The notes under the pieces: model-generated
What the model was told of the DNA's origin: nothing
Database searches by the model: none
Seen by the model: only the letters and a program-made list of their open reading frames with translations
Shown: positions 6,820 through 31,169 of the stretch, piece by piece
Position numbering within the stretch: the stretch's first letter is position 1
Layout: each line of letters starts with the position of its first letter
Translations under genes and position numbers: made by a program
NCBI GenBank assembly: GCA_964423885.1
Contig: CAYRGD010000001.1
Coordinates: forward strand, 24,156 to 88,155
DNA from: an uncultured Candidatus Saccharibacteria bacterium
GTDB taxonomy: Bacteria > Patescibacteriota > UBA1384 > JACPKC01
Direction of reading: 5' to 3'
DNA length: 64,000 nt

Positions 6820-7560
6820 ATGAGCACGCCGGCCAGCCTGCGTCCGACCGAAGAGGTGATCGAGGAGTTCGGGCTGTCGCCCAAGTTCAGTTACTTGCTG
6901 GGTGCGGCAGGAGCCGTCGTGTTCGCGGTCGTGCTCTGGTTCCGTGTCATCCATCCCGGCCCGGCATCAGCCCTTGCTGCTGCGCTCGGCCCGGCCGGGC
7001 CGATGCTGCTTACCGCAGCCACCCTGCTTGTACTGCTTACCGGCCTGTACCTGGTCGGCTTAGCAGTGTTCTTCCGCTTCGCGTACCGGTATTACCTTAC
7101 GACCGAACGGGTGATCCAGTCCGACGGCGTGTTTTCCCAGCATATCGTGAGCGCCGAATACAAGGCGATCAGCGATATCACCGTCCGCCAGGACGCGATC
7201 AGCCACCTATTCCTGGGTACCGGTACGCTCGCGATCAACACCGTCGGCGGCGTGCCCGAAGACGTCGTGCTTATGAACATCGACAATCCGGTTGCGCGGC
7301 GTGAGCAGCTCCGCGGCCTGGCCGCTGCCGCCCATGGCGGCCGACGGGTGACGCGGAGCCTGCTCAATGAGCTCGAGCGGCAGACCGGCATGGAACCGGC
7401 CGGAACCGCACTGTCACCGGTCGCCGGGCAGCCGTTGCCTCCGGTGCCGCCAACGCCTCCAGCCGCCTCGGTTGACGAGGACATCGACGACCTCCACGAC
7501 GACGGGATCGACGATTCCGACCGCCTGCGTGCCGCGCAACGGCAACTGCCCGACCAGTAG
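6820..7560 (+). CDS. Membrane protein with bacterial PH (bPH_2/YdbS-like) domain
   Basis: Two N-terminal TM helices followed by YYLTTERVIQSDGVFSQHIVSAEYKAISDITVRQDAISHLFLGTGTLAINTVGG, typical of membrane-flanked bPH_2 domains. Acidic C-terminal tail. Confidence 0.6.
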   Translation: MSTPASLRPTEEVIEEFGLSPKFSYLLGAAGAVVFAVVLWFRVIHPGPASALAAALGPAGPMLLTAATLLVLLTGLYLVGLAVFFRFAYRYYLTTERVIQSDGVFSQHIVSAEYKAISDITVRQDAISHLFLGTGTLAINTVGGVPEDVVLMNIDNPVARREQLRGLAAAAHGGRRVTRSLLNELERQTGMEPAGTALSPVAGQPLPPVPPTPPAASVDEDIDDLHDDGIDDSDRLRAAQRQLPDQ

Positions 7561-7594
7561 GCAGCACGCTTGCGCGGTGTGCTAGACTGCGCCC

Positions 7595-9295
7595 ATGGGG
7601 AACACCGGACTCACCGCGCGGCGTTGGGCAATCACGCCGCGGACGCACCAGGATATCGCCGCGCAGCTGCTCGCCAACCGGAACATCGGTGACGCCGAGC
7701 GGTTTTTTCATCCCGACTATGACCGCGACAGCCATGACCCGCACCTGCTGCCGGGCATGGCGGCGGCGCTCGACCGGATCACGCGGGCGATCGCCGAGCG
7801 TGAGGCGATCTGCGTGTTCGGCGACTACGACGCCGACGGCATTCCCGGTACCGCCGTACTCATGAAAACCCTGCGGGCTAACGGCGCCACCGTCCGGCCG
7901 TACATTCCTGACCGTGAACGCGAAGGGTACGGCCTCAACCGCACGGCGATCGATACGCTCGCCGCGGAAGGGATCAAGCTCATTATTACCGTGGACCTGG
8001 GCATCACTGGGGCGCCCGAGGTGGCGCAGGCCGCCAGGCTCGGCGTCGATGTGATTATCACCGACCACCACCATGTCGACCCGTCGCGCGTACCCACCGA
8101 TGCGGTCGCGGTCGTCCACCCGGCGCTGCCAGGCTCGGAATACCCGTTCAAGGGCCTGGCCGGCGGCGGCGTATCATGGAAGCTTTGCCAGGCACTGGCC
8201 GCGCATACCGGCACGCCGACGCCGGGCCAACTTAAGTGGTGGCTCGAGCTGCCCGCGATCAGCACGGTGTGCGATATGGTGCCATTGGTCGACGAAAACC
8301 GGATGATCGTCCATTTCGGGCTCAAGGTACTCATGCAGACGCGCAACGCCGGCCTTCAAGCGATGTACCGCGCAGGCGGGATCGCCAACGACGCATTGAC
8401 CGAACGGACGATCGGCTACCATATCGGGCCGCGGATCAACGCGCCGGGGCGGATGGACAGCGCCGCCGTCGCGCTCGACCTATTGCTGGCCGACGACCCG
8501 GCCCGCGCCCACGACGTGGCGGCGGCGGCCGAACAGCACAACCGTGAGCGGCAGGAACAGCTCGACGGCGTGGTCAAAGCCACGTGCAGCCGGATCGAGG
8601 CCGAAGGGCTCCATGAACGCCCCGCGATCGTCCTAGCCGGTGACGGCTGGCCGGCCGGAGTAGTCGGGCTTGCCGCCTCGCGCGTGGTCGAGCGGTTCCA
8701 CCGTCCGGCAATCATCCTGGGTATCCACGACGGCGTCGCCAAGGGATCGGGCAGGAGCATCAAAGGCTTCAACCTGCTGGCCGGCATCGACGCCAACAAA
8801 GACCTGCTCTTGACCCACGGCGGGCACGAGATGGCGGCCGGCCTCCAGTTGCGGGCCGAGCAGGTACCCGCGTTCGCCGAACGCTTCACCGCCTTCGCGG
8901 CCGAGCGTTTGACCGACGAAGACTTCATCCCCACGAAAACCGCCGACATGCTGCTTGAGCCGGCCGCGATCACGCCGGAGCTGGCAGCGACGCTCGCACA
9001 GTTCGCGCCGTTCGGGGTAGGCAACCCGAAGCCGCGGTTCGTGGTGGCGCCGCTCACGGTCGCCGAGGTGCGCCAAGTAGGCGCCGCCAAGCAACACTTG
9101 AAACTCACGTTCGCAGGCGGCCTCGACGGGATCGCGTTCGGGATGGGCGGTCGGGCCCAAGAGTGCGCCCCGGGCAGCGAGCTTGCGGTATTGGGATCGG
9201 TCGAAACGAACGTCTGGAACGGCCACGAACGCCTGCAGCTCCTCATTGACGACCTGAAGCCGCGTTCCCAATTCGCCGCCGAACAGGTAGGATAA
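7595..9295 (+). CDS. recJ: Single-stranded-DNA-specific exonuclease RecJ
   Basis: DHH motifs (VFGDYDADGIPG, IITDHHH) and a DHHA1-like GGHEMAAG. TAGACT lies 6 nt upstream of the ATG. Confidence 0.85.
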   Translation: MGNTGLTARRWAITPRTHQDIAAQLLANRNIGDAERFFHPDYDRDSHDPHLLPGMAAALDRITRAIAEREAICVFGDYDADGIPGTAVLMKTLRANGATVRPYIPDREREGYGLNRTAIDTLAAEGIKLIITVDLGITGAPEVAQAARLGVDVIITDHHHVDPSRVPTDAVAVVHPALPGSEYPFKGLAGGGVSWKLCQALAAHTGTPTPGQLKWWLELPAISTVCDMVPLVDENRMIVHFGLKVLMQTRNAGLQAMYRAGGIANDALTERTIGYHIGPRINAPGRMDSAAVALDLLLADDPARAHDVAAAAEQHNRERQEQLDGVVKATCSRIEAEGLHERPAIVLAGDGWPAGVVGLAASRVVERFHRPAIILGIHDGVAKGSGRSIKGFNLLAGIDANKDLLLTHGGHEMAAGLQLRAEQVPAFAERFTAFAAERLTDEDFIPTKTADMLLEPAAITPELAATLAQFAPFGVGNPKPRFVVAPLTVAEVRQVGAAKQHLKLTFAGGLDGIAFGMGGRAQECAPGSELAVLGSVETNVWNGHERLQLLIDDLKPRSQFAAEQVG

Positions 9296-9319
9296 GCCCA
9301 TACATCCGAAAGGAGCCGT

Positions 9320-9928
9320 ATGGCCTACCAATTGCCCGCATTGCCCTACGCGTACGACGCGCTCGAGCCGGTGATCGACGCGCGCACCATGGAGCTCCAC
9401 CACACAAAGCACCACCAGGCGTATATCGATAAGCTCAATGCCGCGCTCGTGGGGCACGACGACCTGGCGGCCAAGCCGATCGACGAGCTGCTCCGCGGGA
9501 TCGCGGCCGTACCCGACGACATCCGCACGGCGGTCAAGAACCACGGCGGCGGCCACGCCAACCACTCGTTGTTTTGGGAACTCATGATGCCGACCGGGCA
9601 AGGCGGCGAACCGTCGGCCGAGCTTGCCGACGCGCTCACGGCATCCTTCGGTGGCGTCGACGACTTTAAAACCAAGTTCAGCGAGCTGGCTACCGGTATC
9701 TTCGGTTCCGGCTGGGCTTGGCTAGTCAAAGACGCCGACGGCAACCTGGCCATGTATGCCAAGCCGTTGCAAGACAGCCCGTACATGGATAACCACGCGC
9801 CGCTCATCGGGCTCGACGTGTGGGAGCACGCCTACTACTTGCAGTACCAAAACCGCCGCAAAGAGTACGTCGATGCCTGGTGGCAGCTGGTCAACTGGCA
9901 GCACGTGAACGACGCGTTTCTGCGGTAA
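9320..9928 (+). CDS. sodA: Fe/Mn superoxide dismutase
   Basis: LPALPYAYDALEP, HHTKHHQAYI and DVWEHAYYLQYQNRR signatures; AAAGGAG ribosome-binding site upstream. Confidence 0.95.
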   Translation: MAYQLPALPYAYDALEPVIDARTMELHHTKHHQAYIDKLNAALVGHDDLAAKPIDELLRGIAAVPDDIRTAVKNHGGGHANHSLFWELMMPTGQGGEPSAELADALTASFGGVDDFKTKFSELATGIFGSGWAWLVKDADGNLAMYAKPLQDSPYMDNHAPLIGLDVWEHAYYLQYQNRRKEYVDAWWQLVNWQHVNDAFLR

Positions 9929-9959
9929 CTACTGGATACCGGAACAGGAGGGACGAGCG

Positions 9960-12567
9960 ATGGCGAGTACGAACAGACGTGCGGCAGCCGGCATGCGCCG
10001 CTTGCTGGCGTTGACGCTCCTGGTTGCGCTCCAAGCCTTGGGTATCCAGGTTGCGGCCCCGTTCGCAGCCCCGAGCTACGACACTGCTACGGCCGCTACT
10101 CAATCCGCCTACGCGAATCTCCCGCTTGCCTTCGAGCCGAACCTCGGCCAAGCAGGCGATGGGATTAGCTATCTCGTCCACCACGGCCAGGCCGTGACCG
10201 CCTTCTCGTCGACCGGCACCACGACCAGTATCGGCGGGAAACAGATCGCGATGACGTTGCGCGGCGCGGCGGCACAGGACTTCGCGGGTACCGATGAACT
10301 CCCGTCGAAGACCAACTACTTCCTCGGCAACGACCAATCCGACTGGCACTCGGATATTCCGAACTACGCAAAGTTATTTGCCAAGGACGTCTATCCTGGC
10401 ATCGACCTGGCCTACTACGGCACGAACTCACAGCTGGAACACGACTTCATCGTCAGTCCCGGTGCGAATTACAAACAAATCGCCTTCGGCTTCACCGGGC
10501 AGGACGATCTGACCTTGGACGATGACGGTAAACTCGTTCTCAAAGTGGGCGACGACCAGCTAACCTTGAATGCTCCGGTCACGTACCAGACCGACACTAA
10601 CTCGAAGCACACGATCCCGAGCAGCTTTGAACTCCACGACGGCACCGTTACGGTCACTGTTGCCGACACGTACGACCCGGCGAAACCGCTCGTCATCGAC
10701 CCGGTGTTGTCGCTGGCGTACTCCACATACCTGGGCGGGAGCGGGAGCGACACCGCCAACGCGATCGCCGTCGACGACGACGGGAACGCCTACGTAGCAG
10801 GTATAACCACCTCGGCAGACTTTCCGACCGCGTCGCCATACCAGGGGAGTCTTGTCGGCCAGCAGGCTGCGTTCGTCGTCAAGTTCAACCCCGCCGGTTC
10901 GGCCTTGCTGTACGCTACCTATCTGGGCGGGGGCGCCGACACGGCAACGTGGGGAAACAGTATCGCGGCTGACAGTAGCGGCAGTGCCTATGTTGCCGGT
11001 AGTACCGAGGCCGCCGATTTCCCGACCGTCTCGCCATATCAAGGGAGCCTGATAGGTTTCCAAAATGCCTTTATCACGAAGCTCGACCCGTCCGGTTCCG
11101 CCCTCGTCTACTCGACGTATCTGGGCGGGAGCAACAGCGATGCAGTGAGCGCTCTTGCCGTCGATGCCTCCGGCAATGCCTATGCAACCGGCTACACAGT
11201 GTCCTCTGACTTCCCAACCGCTTCGCCGTTCCAGGGGAGCCTCGACGGCACGAATGCCGATGCCTTCGTCGCCAAACTCGACCCGTCCGGTTCCGCCCTC
11301 GTCTACTCGACCTACTTGGGCGGGGACAGCCTCGATCTCGGCGAGGGTATCGCCGTGGATGCGTCAGGTAGCGCCTACATAGCAGGCTCGACGCTGTCGA
11401 CCGACTTTCCCACTGCCTCACCGTTCCAGGGCAGCTCTAGTGTCGGTGGCGATGCCTTCGTGACCAAGCTCAATCCGGCCGGTTCAGCCTTGGTGTATTC
11501 GACCTACTTGGGCGGGAATAGCGGGGAAGAGGCGAGGGGTGTGGCTGTCGACGCCGACGGCAACGCGTACCTCGCCGGTTTGACCGAGTCGACCGATTTC
11601 CCGACCTCATCGCCGTACCAGGGAAGCAGTGGCGGCTCGCAAGACGCCTTCGTCGCCAAGCTGAACGCTGCCGGTTCGGCGTTGGTCTACTCGACCTACC
11701 TGGGCGGGAGTGGCGGCGATGGCGCCTACGACATTGCCGTCGACGCTACTGGCAACACATATGTCACTGGGGGGCACGGACTCGCCCGACTTTCCAACCA
11801 CCTCGCCGTTCCAGGCTGCGAGCGGTGGCGCCACCGATGCTTTCGTCGCGGAATTGAATCCGGCCGGCTCGGCCTTGGACTATTCCACCTATCTAGGCGG
11901 GAGCGCGGGCGATAATACCAATGCTCTTGCCGTCGATGCTGCCGGCAGTGCCTACGTAACAGGATCGACGCTGTCGTCCGATTTTCCGACCCAGTCGCCG
12001 TTCCAAGGCAGTCTCGGTGGTATAGACGATGCGCTTGTCACCAAGTTATCGGACGGGTTGGACATCGTTGCCCGCGTAAATCCGACCCTCACGTTCACCG
12101 TCGGCAGTACGAGTTGCGCTCTTGGCACGCTTTCGACCACCCAGACCCAGCAGTGCACGTACACGCTGTCCGCGGCGACGAACGGGGAATCCGGGTACGG
12201 TATTTCGTATCTTCCTGCAGCTACCTTAACCAGTGGCGGGAACACGATTACCGCCTTGGGGTCGCCGACTGCCAGTACGCTCAATACGGAGCAGTTCGGG
12301 TTGAACTTGGCAGCCAATACCGCAGCCGGGTCACATACGGCGACGGATTTCGGTGCGGCACCGTCGGGTGGATCCGGTGCCGCAGTAGTCAACTACGCCA
12401 CGGCCAACTCATTCAAGTTCGCCACTGCCGGTGACCAAGTCGCGTCGTCGGCCGGTCCGTCACTCGCGACCACGTACACCGTCTCGACCATCGCGAACAT
12501 CGGGAACGCCACCGAGGCCGGGGCATATAGTACGATCGTGACGTTCAACGTTGTTGCGGGATACTAG
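9960..12567 (+). CDS. Large secreted SBBP beta-propeller-repeat surface protein with C-terminal SCPU-like domain; carries a single +1 frameshift (possible pseudogene or sequencing error)
   Basis: Signal peptide, then at least 9 tandem units of consensus YSTYLGGSxxDxAxAIAVDxxGNAYVxGxTxSxDFPTxSPYQGSLxGxxDAFVxKLxPxGSALV (PF06739-like). Track ORFs 9960-11915 and 11710-12567 are the same repeat array in two frames. Deleting one G from the G6 run near 11768-11773 restores YVTGGTDSPDFPTTSPFQ. The C-term LTFTVGSTSCALG...GAYSTIVTFNVVAGY resembles a spore-coat-U/Csu pilin domain. Confidence 0.75.
10690..11760 (+). repeat. Intragenic tandem repeats (about 190-200 nt units) encoding SBBP beta-propeller blades
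   Basis: Near-identical DNA segments recur, e.g. cgacccgtccggttccgccctcgtctactcgac at about 11086 and about 11282. The protein repeats are listed above. Confidence 0.6.
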
Positions 12568-12571
12568 GCGT

Positions 12572-14134
12572 ATGCAGCGTCGCGTTCCTCTGTTCTGGTT
12601 CGACCACGCCCACGAGTGGCTGGCGCGGCATTCCGACCTGTACGGCCGGTGGCACGAGGCGCCGGTTGCCAGCGCGGTCCACTGGTTGGCGCTGGCCGGC
12701 TACCTGGTGCTGGTAGCAACGCTTGGCAGTGCGGCCGTGGCGCCAGCCCTGTCTGCGAGCGCCGAAACGAACGCCATCGATTTCGAAGCCGGGTACGTGG
12801 CCGGGAACATCGACGGCCAGCAAGGCTGGACGAATACGGGCGGGCTCGACGCGGCCGTGGTGCCGAACACGTACGGGTACGCGCCGTTCGGAGCGACCAG
12901 TCTGCGGATCTCGAACGGCATCACCTCGAGCGGGTTCGGCAACCAGCCCTTCGCGCCGTACCTGGATGAAGAGGCGGGGGAAACCACAGCCTACTCGACC
13001 GCCCCGACGCCCACGCGGTGGTCGTCGTTCTTCGCCCAGTTCGACGTGGCCTCCACCGTGCCAGGCGCCGAGCAGTCGGGCCTAGCCGTCCGAGTGAGCC
13101 CGGACGCGGGCGGCGGTATCCGTATGGCCTGGCTCGAGATCGTGGATACGCCGTCGGGCCTTGCGATCAATACGCAGGATTTCCACGACCTGCCGCCCTA
13201 CGGCAGCACCGGCTCGCCGTCGGACGGGTGCGGCGTGGGCGGCGACACGTTCACCGGAGCATCCGTGGCAAGCGGGCTTGACCGGAGCGTGCCGCATACG
13301 GTGCGGATCGCTATGACGCTCATCGACGGGCCGGCCAACGACGTCGTATCGATCTACGTCGACGGTGCGCTCGCGTTCACCGGCACCGACTGGGAAGACT
13401 ACCACCGCTGGTGCGAAGGCGCGCCCAACGAAAGCCGCACGATCCGGACGTTGCTCTTCCGCATGAGCGGCGCAGCTGCGCCGGCTGCCCTGGGCAACGG
13501 CTTGTTATTCGACAACTTCATTATCGCGTCAGGCGCACTGCCCAAGGCGATCACGGCATTCAGTATCAACGGGTCGGCCGGCACGATCGACCAGTCGACG
13601 CATACCGTCGCGGTCACGGTGCCGTACGGCACGGACGCAACGTCGCTCGCGCCGACGGTCGCGATAGCCGGCGCATCGGTGAGCCCTGCGAGCGGCAGTG
13701 CCCAAGACTTTACCCTGCCGCGCACCTATACGGTCACGGCCGCCGATCTGACCACCCAAGACTATCTTGTGACCGTCACGGCCGCTGCTGCGCCGCCGAC
13801 CGATGACGCAGCAACCGAGGAACCGATACCGGATACGGTAGGGGGTGCTGCCGCCACTCGTACCGGGACAACCACGCTGCCAGCCGCTACGCCGAAGCCC
13901 CTCCCGGGTGCAGGGTCGGCTGAAACGGGCCCTGCTTCGTCGGACATGACGCTCGGCATTACCGATGCCTCTGCCACTGTACCGGTTACGGTCGCCGGCT
14001 CGACAAGCGTGTTCCAGGCGACCTGGCTCTTCCTGCTGCTGTTCTTCCTCTTGTTACTCTGTCTCGTCCAGTTCTGGCGGACGCTCGACGACGACGGCTT
14101 GATCGCCGTCCGGCAGACTACTCGCCGGGAATAA
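12572..14134 (+). CDS. Cell-surface protein with LamG/concanavalin-like and Ig-like domains and a C-terminal hydrophobic anchor
   Basis: ATG at 12572 right after the upstream stop; the track start 12551 is a TTG overlapping the previous gene. N-terminal signal anchor; Ig-like module FSINGSAGTIDQSTHTVAVTVPYGTDATSLAPTVAIAGA...; C-terminal WLFLLLFFLLLLCLV plus charged tail. Confidence 0.6.
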   Translation: MQRRVPLFWFDHAHEWLARHSDLYGRWHEAPVASAVHWLALAGYLVLVATLGSAAVAPALSASAETNAIDFEAGYVAGNIDGQQGWTNTGGLDAAVVPNTYGYAPFGATSLRISNGITSSGFGNQPFAPYLDEEAGETTAYSTAPTPTRWSSFFAQFDVASTVPGAEQSGLAVRVSPDAGGGIRMAWLEIVDTPSGLAINTQDFHDLPPYGSTGSPSDGCGVGGDTFTGASVASGLDRSVPHTVRIAMTLIDGPANDVVSIYVDGALAFTGTDWEDYHRWCEGAPNESRTIRTLLFRMSGAAAPAALGNGLLFDNFIIASGALPKAITAFSINGSAGTIDQSTHTVAVTVPYGTDATSLAPTVAIAGASVSPASGSAQDFTLPRTYTVTAADLTTQDYLVTVTAAAAPPTDDAATEEPIPDTVGGAAATRTGTTTLPAATPKPLPGAGSAETGPASSDMTLGITDASATVPVTVAGSTSVFQATWLFLLLFFLLLLCLVQFWRTLDDDGLIAVRQTTRRE

Positions 14135-14633
14135 GGACGATCCGGATCGCGGTGCCGCCGACGGCCGCGTCTACCAGAAAACCGAAGAGCGGCTGGACGC
14201 CTGGTTGGGTCTGGCTTGTGGCAGGTGCCGTCAACCGGTACGGCGACGTATCGAGCCGGGCATGGAGGTCGTCGAGTTCAGCCTGCGTGATCGGCTCGTC
14301 GGTTGTGTAGCGCAACAGCGACTCGTGCGGTCCGGACGTAGTGCTCGCTGCCCGTTGCGCCTCGGTGAAGGCCTGATCCGCCACGGCGCAGCCCTTGTCG
14401 AACGCCTCGCAGCGGTTCGTCTGGGCGACGCCCATCAGCCGCACGGCCGACCCAAAGACTGGTTCGAGGATATCCCGCAGGAGCATCGTGTTCTCGTCGA
14501 CGAGGCCGTTCTGCGCCAGCTGCGCATCGAACCCTATCGGTTGGCCCGGCTCGAGCTGCTGTTTCGCGGCCTGGTAGCCCGCGGTACTCGCTATGAGCGC
14601 GGTTAGGATGACAACTGTCCAGGTAGTGCGCAT
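14118..14633 (-). CDS. Small secreted hypothetical protein
   Basis: Internal start MRTTWTVVILTALIASTAGY (signal peptide) at 14633, preceded by a strong AAGGAGGAG ribosome-binding site. The track ORF extends further upstream (to 14858) without a ribosome-binding site. Confidence 0.6.
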   Translation of the reverse strand: MRTTWTVVILTALIASTAGYQAAKQQLEPGQPIGFDAQLAQNGLVDENTMLLRDILEPVFGSAVRLMGVAQTNRCEAFDKGCAVADQAFTEAQRAASTTSGPHESLLRYTTDEPITQAELDDLHARLDTSPYRLTAPATSQTQPGVQPLFGFLVDAAVGGTAIRIVLIPGE

Positions 14634-14700
14634 GCTCCTCCTTCGTACTGCGTATAGTGTACCAAGCCCGAGCACGGTACCGCTGTGGTAGGATGCAGGT

Positions 14701-16062
14701 ATGGCGAAAGCGTCGGCTGCCACGTACGTCTGCACCGAATGTGGGAACGAAACCGCCCAATGGGCGGGCAAGTGCCCGGCCTGCGGCACGTGGAACTCGC
14801 TCAAGGAGCTGCGGGGGATCGGTGCGGCGCACACCAAGCCGACCGGTGCGCAGCGCAAGGCGTGGGTCGAGGCGGTGGCACCGGTATCGGCCGCGGACGC
14901 CGCCCAGGCACAGAAGACACTCGAACGGTTCCCGTCGATGCCCGAGGTCGACCGTGTCCTAGGCAGCGGATTCGTGCCTGGCAGCGTCCTGCTGCTGGCC
15001 GGCGAGCCGGGGATCGGGAAGTCGACGCTGCTGCTCGCGGTCGCCGACGCGGTGGCGGCCGGCGGCCCTGTCCGCTACCTGTCGGGCGAGGAATCGGCCG
15101 CCCAGGTACTCGACCGCGCCCGTCGGCTCGGTATCGCGAGCCCGCAGCTTACCGTGGCCTCGCTCACCGACGTCGACGCGATCATCGCGGCCATGGCCGC
15201 CGAGCCGCTGCCACGCCTTGCGATCGTCGATTCTATCCAGACCGTGTTCGATCCGTCGATCCCGTCGACGCCCGGCAGTTTGGTGCAGGTGCGTGACTCG
15301 GCCCTGCGCTTGACCGAAGCGGCCAAGCGCCAGGGAACGACCCTTATCCTGTCGAGCCACGTCACCAAGGAGGGGACGCTGGCCGGGCCGCGGACGCTCG
15401 AACACTTGGTGGACGTTGTACTCTACCTGGAAGGCGACCGGTACCACGTGTTGCGGATGCTGCGCGGCGTCAAGAACCGGTTCGGCCCCACCGACGAGGT
15501 CGGGGTGTTCCAGATGAAGGAGTCCGGCCTCGAGGCCGTCGCCAATCCGTCAGCCCGGTTCCTGTCGGAGCGGAGCGAGCAGTTGCCGGGATCAGTGCTC
15601 ACCTGCGTGCTCGAAGGCATGCGGCCGTTCCTGATCGAGGTGCAGGCGCTCACCACGCCGACCAAGTTCGGCTACGCCAAGCGGCGGGGGATCGGCGTCG
15701 ATACCAACCGGCTCGAACTGGTGCTGGCGGTACTCGAACGCCGGGCCGGACTCAAATTGTCGGAGCATGACGTGTTCGTGAACGTGGTGGGCGGCCTCAA
15801 AACCCAAGAACCGGCGACCGACCTTGCCATCGCCGCGGCGATCGCGAGCTCGCTCAAGAACGTCCCGGCCGACCCGAAGCTCGTATTCGTGGGCGAGATC
15901 GGGCTCACCGGCGAGCTGCGCCGGGTGCGGTTTGCCGAGCGTCGCGCCAAAGAAGCGTCCCGGTTCGGGTTCGCGATGGCGGGCGGCAAGGATGTCGGCT
16001 CTGTTTTGACTACGCTTTTCGGCGGCCCGCGCCCGGTGCGCCGGACTACGGCAGCGTCGTAA
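14701..16062 (+). CDS. radA: DNA repair protein RadA/Sms
   Basis: N-terminal C4 zinc finger (CTECGNETAQWAGKCPACGTW), Walker A LLAGEPGIGKSTLLL, Lon-protease-like C-terminal domain. Confidence 0.9.
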   Translation: MAKASAATYVCTECGNETAQWAGKCPACGTWNSLKELRGIGAAHTKPTGAQRKAWVEAVAPVSAADAAQAQKTLERFPSMPEVDRVLGSGFVPGSVLLLAGEPGIGKSTLLLAVADAVAAGGPVRYLSGEESAAQVLDRARRLGIASPQLTVASLTDVDAIIAAMAAEPLPRLAIVDSIQTVFDPSIPSTPGSLVQVRDSALRLTEAAKRQGTTLILSSHVTKEGTLAGPRTLEHLVDVVLYLEGDRYHVLRMLRGVKNRFGPTDEVGVFQMKESGLEAVANPSARFLSERSEQLPGSVLTCVLEGMRPFLIEVQALTTPTKFGYAKRRGIGVDTNRLELVLAVLERRAGLKLSEHDVFVNVVGGLKTQEPATDLAIAAAIASSLKNVPADPKLVFVGEIGLTGELRRVRFAERRAKEASRFGFAMAGGKDVGSVLTTLFGGPRPVRRTTAAS

Positions 16063-18862
16063 CGGTCGTCTGTTCGGTCGTCTGGCTTTCGTTCCCGAAC
16101 GAGTCGACCGGGCGGATCGTGAGGTAGTACTTGACGCCTCCGGCCAGGTTCTTGACCGACAGCGAGCTCGTGGATCCCGGCGTCACCGCGACCTCGGTCG
16201 GGTAGAGCGTACCGAGCGTGTCTTTGATGGTCGAGACGTAGATGCGGACCCGTTCCAGGTCGGTGTCGGAAGGGTTCGTCCAGTTGAGGTGCGCGCCTTG
16301 GCTTTCCGGCAGGGCCGAGATGAACTTCGCTTTGCCCGGCGGCGTGGTGTCGCCTTCGACGTGGACCATGACCGACTGGCTCGTGCTGGCGCCGTTCACG
16401 TCGCGGACCGTGGCCGTGAGCGTGTGGTCGCCGACGCCCAGGTCGGACGTCTTGACGGTAAAGGTATACGGGCTGGCCGTCGCGGTTCCGTAGCTGATCC
16501 CGTCGACCGACAGCGCGACCGACGCGACGCCGAACGAGGCGGCCGGCTTGGTCACGACCAAGAAGGTACCGCTCACGGTCGCCCCGTCGGTCGGCGCGGT
16601 GATCGAGACAGTGGGGATCGTGGCATCGGTGTACATGTCGTCGGTTTCGGTCGGTGGCGAGCTCATGTCGTAGCCGTGGCCCCGCGCCCACTCGATGACC
16701 GGGTTTTCCCAGCTCGGCGTGTCCTTGCGTTCGGAATGGATCACGGTATAGGTGTGTTCTTCGGTCAGCGATTCCGGCGTCAGGCTGGTGGCCAGCTTGC
16801 CGTTCAGCTTGTTGAGTTTTACCTTCACGTGGACGTCGTCGGACCCTTTCGGCATCTGCCAGGGCGCGAACAGGTCGGCCACGGTCTCGGGCGACGAGTC
16901 GGTCGGGAACTTGTTGCTTAACCGGTCGACGGTCACCGTCTTAAGGCTGTCTGGCCGCACGAAGTCGTGGCGCTCGATCGTGCCCAGCGCGCTTTCCATG
17001 AAGGTGTGGAAAATCGGGGCTGCTACCACCGAGCCGTCGGCGTTCTTCATTCCCGTATTGTCGTTATTGCCCACCCAAACCGCGGTCGCGATGTCGGGCG
17101 TGTAGCCGACTGTCCAGGCGTCGTGGAATTCCTGGGTCGTGCCGGTTTTCGCCGCCACCTGGTACTTGGAGAAGTAGAGCGCCGAGCGCGGCCCGAACAC
17201 GGCCGACCGGGCGGCGTTGTCGCTCAAAATATCGGTGATCTGGTAGGCGATCGCCGGATCCAAGACGTCCTTTTCGCCGGTACCCGCTTTATGCTCGAAG
17301 AGCGAGGTGCCGTCGGACGCCGCCACCTTGAGGATGCTCACCGGCGGCCGGTAGGTGCCGCCGTCAGCGAAGACCGAAAAGGCGCTCGCCATGTCGATCG
17401 GCTTGACCTCGCCGCCACCGAGCACGAGCGCCAGGCCGTAGCGTTCCGGCTGGTTCAAGGTCGTGATACCCAGGTCGTGGGCCGTCTGCAACGCGTTGTC
17501 GAGCCCGACCAGGCCGAGCATCTTCACTGCCGGGATATTGAGCGAGTTGGCAAGCGAGAACCGTACGGACACGGGCCCGCGGAACCCGCCGTCGTAGTTG
17601 TTCGGTTTGTAGTTGCCGAAGTCGGTCGGCACGTCCCAGAGCGTGGTCGCCGGGTTGTAGCCCTGCTTGAACCCGGTCGCGTAGACGATCGGCTTGAAAC
17701 TCGAGCCCGGTTGCCGTTCCGACAGCGTGACGTTGACGTTGCCGTCGTGCTCGGTGTCGAAGTAGTCCGCCGACCCGACCATCGCGAGCACCTCGCCGGT
17801 GTGCGGGTCGAGCGAGATGAGCGCCGCGTTGCTGCCGCCGCGTTGGCGGACCTTGGCCATGCCTTGGTCGATCGCCGCCTCGGCCTGTTCCTGTAACCCC
17901 AGGTCGAGCGAGGTGGTTACCTTGAGCCCGCCTTCCTCGACCCGCTGCTCGCCGAACTGGTCGACCAGCTGCTCGCGGATGTAGAAGACGAAGTGCGGCG
18001 CCTTGATCGAATCCTTCTGCGGCACCACCGCGATATCGGTCGCCTTGGCCGCGTCGGCGGCCGCGCGGGTCACGTCGCCCAGGTCGGCCATGGTGTCCAG
18101 GATGAAGTCGCGCCGGGCTTTCAAATCGTCGGTGTGGGTGCCGTAGGGCGAGAAGTAGGTCGGGCGCTGGGGAATGCCGGCAAGCAGGGCAGCCTGTTCA
18201 AGGTTCAGCTCCTTGGCCGGCTTTTCGAAGAACGCCTGCGATGCCGCCTCGATCCCGTAGATATTGCTGCCGTACGGGATCTCATTGAGGTACATCGTCA
18301 GGATCTCGTCCTTGCTGAACATGCTTTCGATCTCGAGCGAGAGAATGAGTTCCTTGATCTTGCGGTCCAAGGCTTTCTGGTTCGTGAGCAGGGCGTTCTT
18401 GACGTACTGTTGGGTGATCGTCGAGCCGCCGACCCGTTTGCCGGTGAATACGTCGATGAACACCGACCGTAGGATGCCTTGGAAATCGACGCCGTGATGT
18501 TTGTAGAAGTTTTTGTCCTCGACCGCGACCACCGCCTGTTTGACCACGTCGGGGATATCGGCGCTCGCGAGCGTCCGGCGGTTCTCGTCGCCGTGGATCT
18601 CGTACAGGAGCGTCCCGTTCCGGTCGTAGATCTGGCTCGACTGCGCCGCCTGGCGTTCTCGGATCTTGCCCGGTGTCGGCAGGTCTTTGGAGTACCAAGC
18701 GAAGAGCGCGGCCACCAGGAATACGCCCGTGACCGCGGCCAGGCGGATCCGGCGCCAGAACTTCTTTTTGTCGGTTTTGGCCCACGCGGTACGGACCCGG
18801 CGGACAAGGGTGCCGATCGACGGGACGCGCGGCGGCTTGGGAGAGGGTTTGGTGTGTGCCAT
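16046..18862 (-). CDS. Class A penicillin-binding protein (transglycosylase/transpeptidase) with C-terminal Ig/FN3-like domains
   Basis: Start MAHTKPSPK at 18862 followed by a TM segment. GT51 motifs (EDKNFYKHHGVD, RVGGSTITQQ), transpeptidase SxxK (SSFKP) and KTGT, then about 250 aa of extra Ig-like beta-sandwich modules. The track ORF's N-terminal 317 aa are an artefactual extension antisense to tyrS. Confidence 0.85.
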   Translation of the reverse strand: MAHTKPSPKPPRVPSIGTLVRRVRTAWAKTDKKKFWRRIRLAAVTGVFLVAALFAWYSKDLPTPGKIRERQAAQSSQIYDRNGTLLYEIHGDENRRTLASADIPDVVKQAVVAVEDKNFYKHHGVDFQGILRSVFIDVFTGKRVGGSTITQQYVKNALLTNQKALDRKIKELILSLEIESMFSKDEILTMYLNEIPYGSNIYGIEAASQAFFEKPAKELNLEQAALLAGIPQRPTYFSPYGTHTDDLKARRDFILDTMADLGDVTRAAADAAKATDIAVVPQKDSIKAPHFVFYIREQLVDQFGEQRVEEGGLKVTTSLDLGLQEQAEAAIDQGMAKVRQRGGSNAALISLDPHTGEVLAMVGSADYFDTEHDGNVNVTLSERQPGSSFKPIVYATGFKQGYNPATTLWDVPTDFGNYKPNNYDGGFRGPVSVRFSLANSLNIPAVKMLGLVGLDNALQTAHDLGITTLNQPERYGLALVLGGGEVKPIDMASAFSVFADGGTYRPPVSILKVAASDGTSLFEHKAGTGEKDVLDPAIAYQITDILSDNAARSAVFGPRSALYFSKYQVAAKTGTTQEFHDAWTVGYTPDIATAVWVGNNDNTGMKNADGSVVAAPIFHTFMESALGTIERHDFVRPDSLKTVTVDRLSNKFPTDSSPETVADLFAPWQMPKGSDDVHVKVKLNKLNGKLATSLTPESLTEEHTYTVIHSERKDTPSWENPVIEWARGHGYDMSSPPTETDDMYTDATIPTVSITAPTDGATVSGTFLVVTKPAASFGVASVALSVDGISYGTATASPYTFTVKTSDLGVGDHTLTATVRDVNGASTSQSVMVHVEGDTTPPGKAKFISALPESQGAHLNWTNPSDTDLERVRIYVSTIKDTLGTLYPTEVAVTPGSTSSLSVKNLAGGVKYYLTIRPVDSFGNESQTTEQTTVTTLP

Positions 18863-21793: not shown

Positions 21794-24055
21794 TTAGAAC
21801 GAGGCTTTGAGCAGCTTGCCGCTTGCCAGGATGTAGGCGGTCTTGTGCGGCTCGTCTACCGCGGCATCGTCGATGTCCGTCAGATCGTCGAACGCATACT
21901 GCCCCGAGAACTGGCCGGATTTGGCGTATGCGAGCATCCGGCCGCCGTCGAGCAGGAACAGGGTGTTGCTGTCGGTAGTGGTCAGGAGCCGTTTGGGCGC
22001 GGTGAGTTCGCTCGTGGGCGCCGGCGCGCCGCCAAGCGCGAAGCTATCGGCCTTGCCGCGGTTGAGGCGGGTGACCGTGCCGTCGCGGCTAAGGACGTAC
22101 ACCTGGCCGTCGATCGCGAGGTCGACGGCGTCGGCTACGTCGGTGCTGTCGGCAAGGTAGGCGTCGGCGGCACCGAACCCGGTCTTGGTCGAGCTGTACT
22201 TCCAGATTTGCGTACCCGCGGTGTCTAGTACGTACAGGTTGCCTAGGAACGCGGCCAGACCGGTACCGGTGCGTGCGGTGCCGCCCGCGTCGACAGCGGT
22301 GAGCGTCCCGTCGGCCGCGACGGTCGCGAGACCTGTGTCGGTCAAGATTGCTGCCGCGTCGTCGAGCGCGGCGACGGCGGCGATGCGCCGGCCGCCCAAG
22401 TCGACTGTGCGCGGGGTACCGCCGCCCAATGGCACGACCGTCAGCGACGTCCCGTTCTTGCCCACGACCGCCGCGTTGTCGCCGAAGACGGCCAGCCGTG
22501 CCGCATCGGGTATCGAGGCGACCTCGGTCAGGTTCGTGAGCCGCGTTGTTTTGGTGAGCGCGTCGAGTTCGCCGGTCGCTTTGGTTTGCAGCTCTGCCGC
22601 CTCGCGTTCGACCACGGTGTTGCGCAGCGCCGGCAGGCCGTCGAGCACGGTCTTGAGCGCCGCTTGCGCCTTATCCGGCTGGTTGAAAACGCGGGCCAGG
22701 CGGGCTTCCTCGAGTTTGTCCGCGAGCGTCTGGAGTTCGACGCCGAGCGTCTGGCGCGACTGCTCGGTCGACCGCTGCCGGGTGATAACCCGCAGGTTGG
22801 AGATGAGAATGACCAGCAGCACCAGTGCGACCAGGCCGAACCCGACCGAGCGCCAATCGATGCGCCGGGCGGCTGAGTTTGTCTGTGCTTTGGCCGCCCC
22901 AAGGAGCCGCCGGTGCCAGGGCTCGGCGGCCGGCGCCGGGGGAGCTGCCGTGTAGTCGGTGATCACAGGGCCGCTGCCGGTAGATTCGGGTTCGTCGGCC
23001 AGGCCGGCGTAGTCACGGATCGCGAACACCGGCTTGCCGATCAGGTTTTCGGGCTCGTCCTTGGCAGGTGGCATTGGCGCGGCAGCGCGGCGTTCTTTCA
23101 GCTGCCGGATGAGATCGGCGGCGGCGGCTTTCCCGGCCCGGGCATGTTTGCCGACTGCGGGTATCACCGTCGTCCGCACGTGGTGCGACTTGGCCTGCGT
23201 CCATGCCTTGGCTTGTTCAAGGAGCGCGGCGGCGTCGAGCTTGGGTGCCGCGGCCACCGTGTCCGAGGCCGACGCGGTACCTGCGCGCTTGGCTGGAACG
23301 ACGTACCGCTTGGCCGTACCGATGAACCGGTCGATCTGGCTGCGCACGCCACCCAATCCGCCGCCGTGGTCGACCACGGCGTCAGGCAGCAGCTCGGCGG
23401 CCGCGTCGATGTAGAGGCAGTTCACCCAGCCGCCCCGCTTGGCGGCAAGGAGCGACGACAGGCCGCTCACCGCTTCGGCGGGCGTGGGCGCAGCCAAGGT
23501 GTGTTCGATCTCGACCGGCGTCAGGAGCTGGGATAGGCCGGAACTGGCGATCAGCAGCCGGTCGGCCGGTTCGACGGTACCGGACAGCACGGTGCCGAAG
23601 ACCTTGCCCGGTGCGGCCGGCGGTTCGTCGCCGTCGAGCATCGGCGAGCCGTGGTCGTCGCGGAGCAGCGTCGCCGTCACCTGGCCCGACGCCGCGATAT
23701 GGACGGCGTCGCCCACCAGCAACACGACCGCCGCGTTCACGTGCCCGATCCAGTCGGTGTTGCCGGTGTGGCTCGCGGCCGTGAGCGTCTCGTTGACGCG
23801 CTTCAAGGCGGTTTCAAAATTCAGCAGCGGGTCGCTCGCGCCGGCGCGGTAGTAGTGGCGGGCGACGGTATTGATGATCGTCTGGCCGACCTGGGCGTTT
23901 GACTGCCACGAGCCCTCAATTTCGACGAGCGCGCAGATCCGGCCCGCCTCGGCGTGTTCCTGTGACGGCGGCTCCTTGATCTGGACCGTCAGGTAGCGGT
24001 CGGACAGCCGGGCGTCCGTACTGATTCGAATCGCGCGCAATCCCTGCGTAGGCAT
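21794..24055 (-). CDS. Membrane protein: N-terminal degenerate PP2C-like (pseudo)phosphatase domain, single TM, coiled coil, extracellular beta-propeller-like domain
   Basis: N-terminus follows the PPM-fold motif order (STDARLSDRYL ~ TDxGxxRxxNED; ICALVEIEGSW in place of the catalytic DGMGG; IAASGQVTATLLRDD; ADRLLIASSGL) but the metal-binding Asp residues are replaced. TM at about aa 395-415, then repeats of the type YVLDTAGTQIWKY / VYVLSRDGTVTRL. Confidence 0.5.
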   Translation of the reverse strand: MPTQGLRAIRISTDARLSDRYLTVQIKEPPSQEHAEAGRICALVEIEGSWQSNAQVGQTIINTVARHYYRAGASDPLLNFETALKRVNETLTAASHTGNTDWIGHVNAAVVLLVGDAVHIAASGQVTATLLRDDHGSPMLDGDEPPAAPGKVFGTVLSGTVEPADRLLIASSGLSQLLTPVEIEHTLAAPTPAEAVSGLSSLLAAKRGGWVNCLYIDAAAELLPDAVVDHGGGLGGVRSQIDRFIGTAKRYVVPAKRAGTASASDTVAAAPKLDAAALLEQAKAWTQAKSHHVRTTVIPAVGKHARAGKAAAADLIRQLKERRAAAPMPPAKDEPENLIGKPVFAIRDYAGLADEPESTGSGPVITDYTAAPPAPAAEPWHRRLLGAAKAQTNSAARRIDWRSVGFGLVALVLLVILISNLRVITRQRSTEQSRQTLGVELQTLADKLEEARLARVFNQPDKAQAALKTVLDGLPALRNTVVEREAAELQTKATGELDALTKTTRLTNLTEVASIPDAARLAVFGDNAAVVGKNGTSLTVVPLGGGTPRTVDLGGRRIAAVAALDDAAAILTDTGLATVAADGTLTAVDAGGTARTGTGLAAFLGNLYVLDTAGTQIWKYSSTKTGFGAADAYLADSTDVADAVDLAIDGQVYVLSRDGTVTRLNRGKADSFALGGAPAPTSELTAPKRLLTTTDSNTLFLLDGGRMLAYAKSGQFSGQYAFDDLTDIDDAAVDEPHKTAYILASGKLLKASF

Positions 24056-24125: not shown

Positions 24126-24203
24126 TGGTCGGGGTGGGCGGATTTGAACCGCCGGTCTCCAGACCCCCAGCCTGGCGCATTAGGCCAACTATGCTACACC
24201 CCG
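24126..24203 (-). tRNA. tRNA-Pro (anticodon GGG)
   Basis: Reverse complement folds as CGGGGTG-TA-GCAT-AGTTGGCCTA-ATGC-G-CCAGG-CTGGGGG-TCTGG-AGACC-GGCGG-TTCAAAT-CCGCC-CACCCCG-A-CCA. Cloverleaf with anticodon GGG and an encoded CCA. Confidence 0.85.
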
Positions 24204-27429: not shown

Positions 27430-27504
27430 GCCGCCTTAGCTCAGCGGTAGAGCAGCTGTTTTGTAAACAGCAGGTCGTCGGTTCAAATCCGTCAGGCGGC
27501 TCCA
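27430..27504 (+). tRNA. tRNA-Thr (anticodon TGT)
   Basis: GCCGCCT-TA-GCTC-AGCGGTA-GAGC-A-GCTGT-TTTGTAA-ACAGC-AGGTC-GTCGG-TTCAAAT-CCGTC-AGGCGGC-T-CCA. One U:U mismatch in the T stem (50:64). A TATACT -10 element at 27413-27418 may drive the tRNA operon. Confidence 0.8.
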
Positions 27505-27507
27505 TGC

Positions 27508-27595
27508 GCTGGGGTACCCAAGCGGTCAACGGGGGCAGACTGTAAATCTGCTGGCCTATGCGCCTTCGTAGGTTCGAATCCTACCTCCAGCACCA
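27508..27595 (+). tRNA. tRNA-Tyr (anticodon GTA), class II with long variable arm
   Basis: GCTGGGG-TA-CCC...GGG-G-GCAGA-CTGTAAA-TCTGC-[16-nt variable arm]-GTAGG-TTCGAAT-CCTAC-CTCCAGC-A-CCA. Closely parallels E. coli tRNA-Tyr. Confidence 0.8.
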
Positions 27596-27618
27596 CTACA
27601 GCCGTGAACGGTCCATGC

Positions 27619-27693
27619 GCCCGAGTAGCTCAGGGGTAGAGCAACTCCATGGTAAGGAGTAGGTCAGGGGTTCAAGTCCCCTCTCGGGCTCCA
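27619..27693 (+). tRNA. tRNA-Thr (anticodon GGT)
   Basis: GCCCGAG-TA-GCTC-AGGGGTA-GAGC-A-ACTCC-ATGGTAA-GGAGT-AGGTC-AGGGG-TTCAAGT-CCCCT-CTCGGGC-T-CCA. Confidence 0.85.
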
Positions 27694-27712
27694 ACAGTCG
27701 AAAGGAACAGGT

Positions 27713-27898
27713 ATGGCGAAAAAGGGTAAGGTCCAGAAGTTCCACCTCACTTGCAGCGAATGCGGCGAGCGGAACTACGTGGCCAAGAAGAACACCGTCA
27801 ACGTGACCGGGAAACTGGCGCTGTCCAAGTACTGCGCGCGCTGCCGGCTCCACAAAGCGCACAACGAAACCAAGCTGCCGAACCCGAAGCCGCGCTGA
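27713..27898 (+). CDS. rpmG: 50S ribosomal protein L33
   Basis: MAKKGKVQKFHLTCSECGERNYVAKKNTVNVTGKLALSKYCARCRLHKAHNETK: the L33 family with a C4 zinc ribbon; AAAGGAA ribosome-binding site. Confidence 0.9.
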   Translation: MAKKGKVQKFHLTCSECGERNYVAKKNTVNVTGKLALSKYCARCRLHKAHNETKLPNPKPR

Positions 27899-27929
27899 CG
27901 CACGCCGGTTTGGTATGCTGTGCGGGCAG

Positions 27930-28003
27930 GGGAGCTTGGTGAAGTGGCATCACGACGGTCTCCAAAACCGTGGTCGGGGGTTCGATTCCCTCAGCTCCTG
28001 CCA
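27930..28003 (+). tRNA. tRNA-Trp (anticodon CCA)
   Basis: GGGAGCT-TG-GTGA-AGTGGCA-TCAC-G-ACGGT-CTCCAAA-ACCGT-GGTC-GGGGG-TTCGATT-CCCTC-AGCTCCT-G-CCA. Discriminator G is typical of Trp; the position after rpmG matches the conserved rpmG-tRNA-Trp arrangement. Confidence 0.8.
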
Positions 28004-31069: not shown

Positions 31070-31169
31070 GGTTCCCTCCTTACGCGTTGCGGTTGTTGCC
31101 ACTATACCCTACTGCGACTTGTGGATGGCGGGCTTTGCTATACTGGCACCACAGGAACGGAGGGACAGC

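What the first reader, a model, noticed from the sequence alone, without database searches (positions are those of the whole stretch)
11740..11800. +1 frameshift in a G6 homopolymer splits the 869-aa SBBP/SCPU surface-protein gene
The repeat array continues seamlessly from ORF 9960-11915 into ORF 11710-12567 if one G is removed from the tcactggggggcacgg run (about 11768-11773). The protein unit YVTG-G-TDSPDFPTTSPFQ is restored. This is either a sequencing or assembly indel, a recent pseudogenisation of a large adhesin, or a slipped-strand phase-variation switch for a surface antigen.
Basis: seen in the sequence. Interest (0 to 1): 0.5.

Follow-up and report, generated by a model that had tools for sequence, protein, structure and literature searches.

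The report
Single-G frameshift in a pilus-adhesin paralog
One extra G in a six-G run breaks one of at least eight copies of a surface-protein gene in an uncultured Patescibacteria genome; it looks like a very recent ordinary slippage mutation or a consensus error, not an evolved on/off switch.

Summary
A G6 run at 11769-11774 splits an otherwise continuous gene. Removing one G joins ORF 9960-11915 to the frame ending at 12567, giving an 868-aa protein. That protein aligns end to end, with no gap at the junction, with seven intact paralogs from the same 292,834-bp contig and with relatives in other Patescibacteria MAGs.

The protein has a signal peptide, DUF7948, a seven-bladed SBBP propeller and a C-terminal domain. 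That domain is not SCPU. It is the CPR Pam-pilus pilin C-terminal domain (NCBIfam NF058581, 120 bits against a cut-off of 55). The frameshift removes blade 7, the propeller-closing strand and the pilin domain, so the G6 allele should be null.

An evolved phase switch is disfavoured:
- The tract is short (G5 on, G6 off).
- It is absent at the same codons in all six relatives with DNA.
- It lies 70% of the way into the gene.
- G/C runs of 6 or more are strongly depleted here (3 against about 41 expected).

The downstream frame shows no decay. Nothing else in the 64 kb looks frameshifted. Independent Logan contigs match 7.1 kb of flanks without indels but do not cover the tract. A recent real insertion and a consensus error therefore remain unresolved without reads.

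The parts
11769..11774 (+). G6 homopolymer, the site of the +1 frameshift. G5 or G8 would be in frame; G6 and G7 are out of frame.
   Evidence: The alignment junction has no gap with G5.
9960..11915 (+). Upstream ORF as it stands (651 aa, identical to P0002). It matches the family up to codon 604, then runs through a 47-aa out-of-frame tail to the stop at 11913-11915.
   Evidence: The codon-usage signal ends at about 11744, roughly 170 nt before the stop.
11773..12567 (+). Downstream part of the gene in the second frame (fused residues 605-868 plus stop). The database gene caller recorded it as a 237-aa protein, P0143, starting at TTG 11854.
9947..9953 (+). Shine-Dalgarno-like AGGAGGG, 6 nt upstream of ATG 9960.
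   Evidence: read directly from the sequence.
9960..10064 (+). Predicted N-terminal signal peptide: an Arg-rich n-region followed by the hydrophobic stretch LLALTLLVALQAL.
   Evidence: Sequence inspection and the AF2 helix at residues 7-32. No dedicated signal-peptide predictor was run.
10158..10706 (+). DUF7948 domain (residues 67-249).
   Evidence: Pfam PF25778, E 7e-49.
10713..12048 (+). Seven-bladed SBBP beta-propeller (residues about 252-696). The frameshift falls at the end of the last strand of blade 6.
   Evidence: Pfam PF06739, 7 stretches, E 1.6e-55. AF2 strand pattern with pLDDT 80-95 across the propeller.
12061..12564 (+). C-terminal Pam-pilus pilin domain (truncated Ig-like donor-strand acceptor) with two invariant cysteines. 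The NF058581 match covers 12103-12564.
   Evidence: NCBIfam NF058581.1, 119.9 bits against a cut-off of 55. Beta-sandwich model, pLDDT 76. Invariant C719 and C732.
12572..14134 (+). Downstream gene, 4 nt after the stop. It encodes a 520-aa protein with a hydrophobic C-terminal segment and probably shares the transcription unit.
   Evidence: the same product is called on a Logan contig. Only sub-threshold DUF5018 hits in Pfam and no NCBIfam hit.

Best explanation
A genuine and very recent one-base insertion (G5 to G6), of the kind made by replication slippage, has inactivated one member of a family of at least eight paralogs in a high-GC Patescibacteria genome.

The family encodes secreted proteins built from a signal peptide, DUF7948, a variable seven-bladed SBBP propeller and a conserved Pam-pilus pilin C-terminal domain. 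The likely role, which is inferred, is a propeller 'head' carried on a Pam pilus through donor-strand acceptance by the C-terminal domain, in the way that two-domain tip adhesins ride on chaperone-usher pili.

The G6 allele should yield a secreted 651-aa product. That product lacks blade 7, the strand that closes the propeller and the pilin domain, so it can neither fold as a closed propeller nor join a pilus. It is a null allele, tolerated because the other paralogs are intact. It could revert by losing a G, but nothing indicates that the tract was selected as a switch.

Shown: the lesion, its exact position, the domain architecture, the intact paralogs and the absence of decay.

Inferred: that the extra G is in the DNA rather than in the consensus, that the product is null, and the pilus-adhesin role.
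For: - **Lesion position.** The lesion is pinned to the G run and the fused protein is colinear with 15 homologs.
- **Intact relatives.** Seven paralogs of 859-877 aa from the same 292,834-bp contig are intact. Every copy in L023-L027 is a single-frame match.
- **Assembly quality.** Independent Logan contigs of run SRR12712864 match the window over 7,144 bp with no indels and one substitution. A codon-usage scan finds no other ORF in 64 kb whose coding signal stops far short of its stop codon. The two other G6 runs sit inside ORFs that are not interrupted, one FtsQ-like and one ArgRS.
- **Recent origin.** There is only one lesion. At columns that are invariant in the other homologs, the downstream frame has 2 private changes out of 107, within the 0-9 range seen in intact homologs.
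- **Expected loss of function.** The AF2 model shows 7 blades, with the shift at strand 600-606, before blade 7 and the closing strand 689-696. The C-terminal domain is NF058581. No Shine-Dalgarno sequence was seen on reading the bases before the internal TTG at 11854.
- **Pilus context.** Pam pili and the donor-strand role of the C-terminal domain are described in bioRxiv 10.64898/2026.03.03.709456.
Against: No reads and no independent contig cover the tract, so a consensus error or a minority allele cannot be excluded. The complete lack of decay downstream is also what an artefact would give. The sequencing platform of the MAG is unknown. The Logan look-up for a G6-type partial product starting at 11283 found nothing, which is uninformative but does not confirm G6. 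The pilus-adhesin role is inferred from domain content alone, and no pam operon components were found among the window ORFs scanned.
Confidence: 0.5

Rival explanations
1. This is a sequencing, assembly or polishing artefact, or the consensus picked a minority allele. The organism's gene would then have G5 and be intact.
For: The gene is otherwise flawless: a strong Shine-Dalgarno sequence, a single lesion and no excess substitutions downstream. All homologs are intact. Homopolymers are the classic site of indel errors. The gene belongs to a repeat-rich multi-copy family that broke the k=31 Logan assembly at 10202 and 12474. It also carries a 35-nt exact internal repeat, which are conditions under which read mapping and polishing are weakest. 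One substitution between the MAG and the Logan contig shows that the population or the consensus is not uniform.
Against: There are no indel differences over the 7.1 kb shared with an independent assembly of the same run. There is no other frameshift signature in about 55 genes. The other two G6 runs and the 34 G5/C5 runs are not associated with any frame break detected. If the data are short-read, which is inferred from the exact Logan contigs, indel errors at a 6-base run are uncommon.
Confidence: 0.33
2. This is an evolved slipped-strand phase-variation switch. The G tract toggles expression of this adhesin paralog (on at G5 or G8, off at G6 or G7), varying the pilus-tip repertoire of an episymbiont.
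For: A homopolymer inside the reading frame of a predicted surface or pilus protein that belongs to a multi-copy family with a variable head and conserved ends is the typical setting for contingency loci. The downstream frame is perfectly preserved, as expected for a reversible off state.
Against: - The tract is G6 (on state G5), below the 7-or-more cut-off used for poly-G/C and the 8-or-more shown to switch, with typical lengths of 9-10 (PMC6321876).
- The homologous codons in all six relatives with DNA carry no run (GGT CTA, AGT CAT, GGC GGG, GGC TTA, GGA GAA, GGC ATT), and no copy has a G/C run of 6 or more.
- The site is at codon 604 of 868, not near the 5' end.
- G/C runs of 6 or more are about 13-fold depleted in the window, 3 against 40.6 +/- 6.5 expected.
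- A full-text search for 'Patescibacteria' together with 'phase variation' returned one paper, on archaeal DNA methylation.
Confidence: 0.1
3. This is programmed recoding. A +1 (or -2) ribosomal frameshift, or transcriptional slippage, on the G run would produce the full-length protein from the G6 template.
For: A Gly-tRNA in the P site could re-pair perfectly on GGG after a +1 slip, and the product would be identical to that of the G5 gene (read from the sequence).
Against: No homolog carries the shift, so nothing is conserved. The 0-frame codon after the slip site is GGG, which is not rare (19% of Gly codons in 11 reference genes and 25% in this gene), and it is not a stop codon. Six G is shorter than the runs of about 9 A or T known to support transcriptional slippage (established knowledge).
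Confidence: 0.03

Closest known systems
Ordinary homopolymer-slippage frameshift alleles (nascent pseudogenes) in multi-copy surface-protein families
   Same: A single +1 insertion in a short mononucleotide run. One copy is affected while its paralogs stay intact. There is no further decay.
   Different: The family affected is a Patescibacteria SBBP-propeller / Pam-pilin-domain family. I found no description of it as such in the one paper on Pam pili.
Poly-G/C contingency loci of Campylobacter, Neisseria and Haemophilus (slipped-strand phase variation)
   Same: A G homopolymer inside the ORF of a surface-structure gene, where a change of one base toggles translation.
   Different: The tract is only 6 bases (5 when on), against 7 or more, and typically 9-10. 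It is not conserved in homologs, it lies late in the ORF, and the genome is depleted of such tracts rather than enriched. No length variation has been observed.
Pam pili of CPR bacteria (PamA/B/E/T; Troman et al. 2026, bioRxiv 10.64898/2026.03.03.709456)
   Same: The C-terminal domain passes the NCBIfam Pam pilin C-domain model. There is an N-terminal signal peptide, the C-terminal domain contains paired cysteines, and the organism is a CPR bacterium.
   Different: The N-terminal part is DUF7948 plus a 7-bladed propeller of about 650 aa, not the nine-strand beta-sandwich of PamA/B/E. The PamT equivalog score is below its cut-off. No pam operon neighbours occur in the window. The gene is solitary here, whereas relatives carry tandem arrays.
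Two-domain tip adhesins of chaperone-usher pili (FimH, PapG)
   Same: By analogy only: a receptor-binding head is fused to a C-terminal pilin domain that accepts a donor strand.
prfB-type programmed +1 ribosomal frameshifting
   Same: Restoring the frame would need a +1 shift at a slippery run.
   Different: There is no conserved shift site in homologs, no stop or rare codon in the A site, and no evidence of recoding.

Membership tests
Slipped-strand (SSR) phase-variable contingency locus | Hypermutable tract length (poly-G/C of 7 or more, with switching shown for 8 or more) | tested here: not met
   The tract is G6 and the in-frame state is G5. Cut-offs are from PMC6321876.
Slipped-strand (SSR) phase-variable contingency locus | Tract within the ORF, so that a one-repeat change toggles translation | tested here: met
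   G6 splits the ORF and G5 restores 868 aa.
Slipped-strand (SSR) phase-variable contingency locus | Tract conserved in homologs, with length differences between strains or copies | tested here: not met
   Six homologous copies with DNA have no run at these codons and none has a G/C run of 6 or more. Only one of the six comes from the same genome.
Slipped-strand (SSR) phase-variable contingency locus | Tract-length heterogeneity within the population (reads) | not testable with these tools
   There is no read access. No Logan contig covering the tract was found. An exact-pattern scan of JGI metagenomes gave 0 hits.
Slipped-strand (SSR) phase-variable contingency locus | Over-representation of such tracts in the genome | tested here: not met
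   3 G/C runs of 6 or more against 40.6 +/- 6.5 expected in the 64-kb window.
Pam pilus pilin-domain proteins (CPR) | C-terminal truncated Ig-like pilin domain (NCBIfam NF058581 above cut-off) | tested here: met
   119.9 bits against a cut-off of 55, E 9.4e-35. The paralogs P0005 and P0086 also pass.
Pam pilus pilin-domain proteins (CPR) | N-terminal Sec signal peptide | tested here: inconclusive
   A typical n-region and h-region are seen by eye, and AF2 gives a helix at residues 7-32. No signal-peptide predictor was available.
Pam pilus pilin-domain proteins (CPR) | Encoded with membrane-anchored PamC/PamD chaperones and PamR in a pam operon | tested here: not met
   NCBIfam scans of the neighbouring and unassigned window ORFs gave no Pam component. 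The only hit was a PKD-domain protein at 41.7 bits against the PamR cut-off of 300. The rest of the genome was not available.
Pam pilus pilin-domain proteins (CPR) | Equivalence to the tip pilin PamT (NF058579 equivalog cut-off) | tested here: not met
   106 bits against a cut-off of 240. The match is to the shared C-terminal domain only.
Pam pilus pilin-domain proteins (CPR) | Incorporation into a filament by donor-strand exchange | not testable with these tools
   This needs complex modelling or experiment.
SBBP beta-propeller / DUF7948 proteins | Pfam PF06739 repeats and PF25778 above gathering scores | tested here: met
   SBBP 185 bits in 7 stretches; DUF7948 167 bits. Seven blades in the AF2 model.
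SCPU (spore coat protein U / Csu pilin) domain | Match to the Pfam SCPU model | tested here: not met
Programmed +1 ribosomal frameshift (prfB-like) | Shift site conserved in homologs, with a slow or stop codon in the A site | tested here: not met
   All homologs are unshifted. The GGG codon accounts for 19-25% of Gly codons.
Decayed pseudogene | Several disabling lesions or relaxed constraint | tested here: not met
   There is one lesion only. Private changes at otherwise invariant columns are 2 of 107 downstream, the same as in intact homologs.

The most novel reading that the evidence does not exclude
The G tract is a working, if short, contingency switch in a Patescibacteria genome. It turns one of at least eight alternative propeller-headed Pam-pilus adhesins on and off and so varies host-attachment specificity within a population. 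This would need raised slippage rates, for example from absent mismatch repair, which could not be checked in 64 kb. A full-text search for phase variation together with Patescibacteria returned only one paper, on an unrelated subject.
Probability: 0.08. Interest if true: 0.65.

Novelty: new member of a known kind. Interest (0 to 1): 0.3.

Why it matters
The frameshift itself is routine. It matters mainly for annotation, because the two ORFs should be treated as one disrupted gene.

The more useful result is what the gene is. It belongs to a multi-copy family, tandemly arrayed in relatives, of seven-bladed propeller proteins that end in the recently defined Pam-pilus pilin domain. That makes them candidate exchangeable pilus adhesins of episymbiotic CPR bacteria, for which host recognition is an open question.

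If read data showed G-tract length heterogeneity, this would be a first lead to adhesin switching in this group.

Tried and rejected
1. **Exact-product look-ups for Logan or other contigs covering the tract.** P0002, P0143 and P0005 are not on record. I also guessed a partial product starting at 11283. The guess assumed that the 35-nt internal repeat breaks k=31 contigs at 11282. It was not found, which is uninformative.
2. **Search with the 57-aa out-of-frame tail to find G6-type fragments.** No candidates came back, not even the positive control P0002. The word index simply did not sample those words, so the negative means nothing.
3. **Exact DNA pattern allowing G5-G8 in JGI metagenomes.** It gave 0 hits.
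4. **Synteny.** The RecJ-based genome scan gave relatives L001-L004, but no SBBP gene lies next to RecJ/SodA there, so there is no positional ortholog to compare.
5. **SCPU identity of the C-terminal domain.** Rejected.
6. **Fold search against AFDB50.** The library was not available.
7. **Literature search for SRR12712864.** No hits.
8. **Cluster look-up for accessions or names of P0002, P0143 and P0005.** None was given.
9. **A second frameshift at the other G6 runs, or at abutting ORF pairs** (18.9-20.1 kb; 25.5-26.8 kb). Rejected: these are an antisense shadow of the PBP gene beside the ArgRS start, and two distinct genes (a pol III delta'-like protein and a TPR protein).

Full report
**1. 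The observation**

The window reads TAT GTC ACT GGGGGG CAC GGA at 11760-11780. ORF 9960-11915 (651 aa) and ORF 11710-12567 overlap by 205 nt in different frames. Removing one G gives a single ORF of 868 codons plus stop, and the local sequence becomes GNTYVTGGTDSPDFPTTSPFQ.

tblastn of the fused protein against the window returns two 100% segments that abut inside the run: residues 1-605 ending at 11774, and residues 604-868 starting at 11770. The fused protein aligns with 15 homologs without a gap at the junction. Family-invariant residues on both sides are recovered only after the correction: G604 upstream, and S608, F611, P612 and onward to Y856 downstream. The lesion is therefore real in this sequence and is located in the G run itself. 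G5 fits the blade register exactly. G8 would also be in frame but would add one glycine.

**2. Organism and data source**

The window is 64% G+C. The RecJ gene next door has its closest relatives (76%, 63%, 56% and 61% identity) in MAGs labelled Patescibacteria group, Candidatus Berkelbacteria and Candidatus Saccharibacteria.

The exact 651-aa and 237-aa products are on record from one NCBI contig of 292,834 bp (P0002 and P0143). Logan contigs assembled independently from run SRR12712864 match the window at 7338-10202 (100%) and at 12474-16752 (one substitution, at 16276). Neither has an indel. Both contigs end inside the gene, in the segments that are most conserved among paralogs. I take this as a sign that paralogs share exact 31-mers there; that is an inference. 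None of these contigs covers the tract.

**3. What the gene encodes**

Pfam finds DUF7948 at residues 67-249 and seven SBBP repeats. An AlphaFold2 model built on the 16-sequence alignment has a confident propeller (pLDDT 80-95) of seven four-stranded blades. Blade 1 is completed by a last strand at residues 689-696. The frameshift falls at the end of strand 600-606, which is the last strand of blade 6. The N-terminus looks like a Sec signal peptide. A strong AGGAGGG sits 6 nt before the ATG.

There is also no sequence match to solved structures. The domain model is a beta-sandwich (pLDDT 76) with only generic fold matches:
- Foldseek's top hits are the pilus subunits EcpA, BPSL1626 and Ena2A, all non-significant.

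NCBIfam identifies the domain. NF058581.1 'CPR_Pam_pilin_C' scores 119.9 bits against a cut-off of 55. The PamT equivalog model stays below its cut-off, at 106 against 240.

Pam pili were described in 2026 in Ca. Mycosynbacter amalyticus. [quoted passage not shown] PamT is a proposed tip subunit (bioRxiv 10.64898/2026.03.03.709456). That paper does not mention propeller or adhesin fusions.

A profile of the C-terminal domain finds 1,125 cluster representatives (E<=0.001). Among the 150 best listed, which range from 80 to 2,295 aa, it lies at or within a few residues of the C-terminus. All ten sampled proteins pass NF058581, and they carry different heads. My inference is that these are pilus subunits with variable heads, comparable to two-domain tip adhesins.

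**4. The family**

Seven further copies of 859-877 aa come from the same 292,834-bp contig. They are 52-71% identical overall, but two of them, P0005 and P0009, are 90% identical in the C-terminal domain, while the more divergent paralogs are 43-61% identical there.

In the same sample one paralog, P0086, is flanked by the 3' end of another copy and by a further partial gene (L023). In Hainich groundwater contigs the copies sit head to tail (L024, L026). Every one of these copies is a single-frame match. The copy in this window is solitary, because no other copy occurs in the 64 kb. It lies between sodA and a gene for a 520-aa protein with a hydrophobic C-terminal segment that starts 4 nt after its stop. 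It has no positional ortholog next to RecJ in relatives.

**5. Discriminating the explanations**

*Against an evolved switch:*
- G6 (with an on state of G5) is below the 7-or-more cut-off and the lengths of 8 or more shown to switch. Typical tracts are 9-10 bases (PMC6321876).
- The homologous codon pair carries no run in any of six copies with DNA, and none of those copies has a G/C run of 6 or more.
- The site is 70% of the way into the ORF.
- G/C runs of 6 or more are strongly depleted in the window, 3 against 40.6 +/- 6.5 expected.

*Against recoding:* no homolog carries the shift, and GGG is a common codon.

*Against an old pseudogene:* there is a single lesion. At columns invariant in the other homologs, the downstream frame has 2 private changes of 107, which is inside the range of intact homologs.

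*On assembly quality:*
- There are no indels against 7.1 kb of independent contigs.
- In a codon-usage scan of the high-scoring ORFs, the SBBP ORF was the only one with the pattern of coding signal stopping about 170 nt before the stop and then resuming in another frame.
- The two other G6 runs lie in ORFs that are not interrupted, one FtsQ-like and one ArgRS.

These points favour a real insertion, but they do not prove it. An artefact would also leave the gene otherwise perfect, and repeat-rich paralog families are where consensus building is weakest.

**6. Verdict**

The most likely explanation, at about 0.5, is a very recent genuine G5-to-G6 slippage insertion that creates a null allele of one redundant paralog. 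The product would lack blade 7, the closing strand and the pilin domain.

A consensus or assembly error is next, at about 0.33. An evolved phase-variation switch is about 0.1. Recoding is about 0.03. Only read-level data can separate the first two.

The frameshift itself is ordinary. The identification of the gene as a propeller-headed Pam-pilin-domain protein from a multi-copy family is the more interesting by-product.

Noticed in passing
window 12061-12564; also P0241-P0389, L023, L024, L026: The Pam-pilus pilin C-domain (NF058581) lies at or within a few residues of the C-terminus in the 150 best-listed representatives (80-2,295 aa) of 1,125 profile hits. It is fused to varied heads, including SBBP and YVTN/lactonase-type propellers. 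SBBP-headed copies form tandem arrays in groundwater Patescibacteria. The Pam pilus paper does not mention such fusions, so they may be alternative pilus tip adhesins.
   Followed up: partly
whole window: G/C homopolymers of 6 or more are about 13-fold rarer than a first-order Markov model predicts (3 against 40.6 +/- 6.5). There is no C6 at all, which suggests selection against slippage-prone runs in this genome.
   Followed up: partly
window 11082-11116 and 11277-11311: A 35-nt exact direct repeat lies inside the gene, at the ...SGSALVYSTYLGG motif of two adjacent blades. It is long enough to break k=31 assemblies and could be a substrate for intragenic recombination.
   Followed up: no
window 10202 and 12474 (ends of L021 and L022): Independent Logan contigs stop inside the DUF7948 and Pam C-domain segments, which are the most conserved among paralogs (90% protein identity in the C-domain for the two closest same-genome copies). 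This hints at exact DNA sharing, and possibly gene conversion, between the conserved ends of the paralogs.
   Followed up: no
window 16276: This is the only difference between the window (T) and the Logan contig of SRR12712864 (G) across 7,144 shared bases. It lies in the PBP1A gene region, and it is either a population polymorphism or a consensus difference.
   Followed up: no
window 38810-41305 (+): A PilB-type type II/IV secretion ATPase (T2SSE, MshEN) is present, followed by further ORFs on the same strand that I did not scan. Large Ig, cadherin and PKD-domain proteins lie upstream (29207-31102 on the minus strand; 33628-37146 on the plus strand). The window therefore carries type IV pilus machinery besides the Pam-domain gene.
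   Followed up: partly
window 21794-24055 (-): A 753-aa ORF has one of the strongest coding signals in the window but no Pfam or NCBIfam match.
   Followed up: no
window 12572-14134 (+): A 520-aa protein is encoded 4 nt downstream of the frameshifted gene. It has a hydrophobic C-terminal segment and only sub-threshold DUF5018-like similarity, with no Pam chaperone or PamR match. It may be functionally linked to the adhesin.
   Followed up: partly
window 24126-24203 (-) and 27430-28003 (+): The window carries tRNA-Pro(GGG) and a cluster of tRNA-Thr(TGT), Tyr(GTA), Thr(GGT) and Trp(CCA). These are ordinary.
   Followed up: yes
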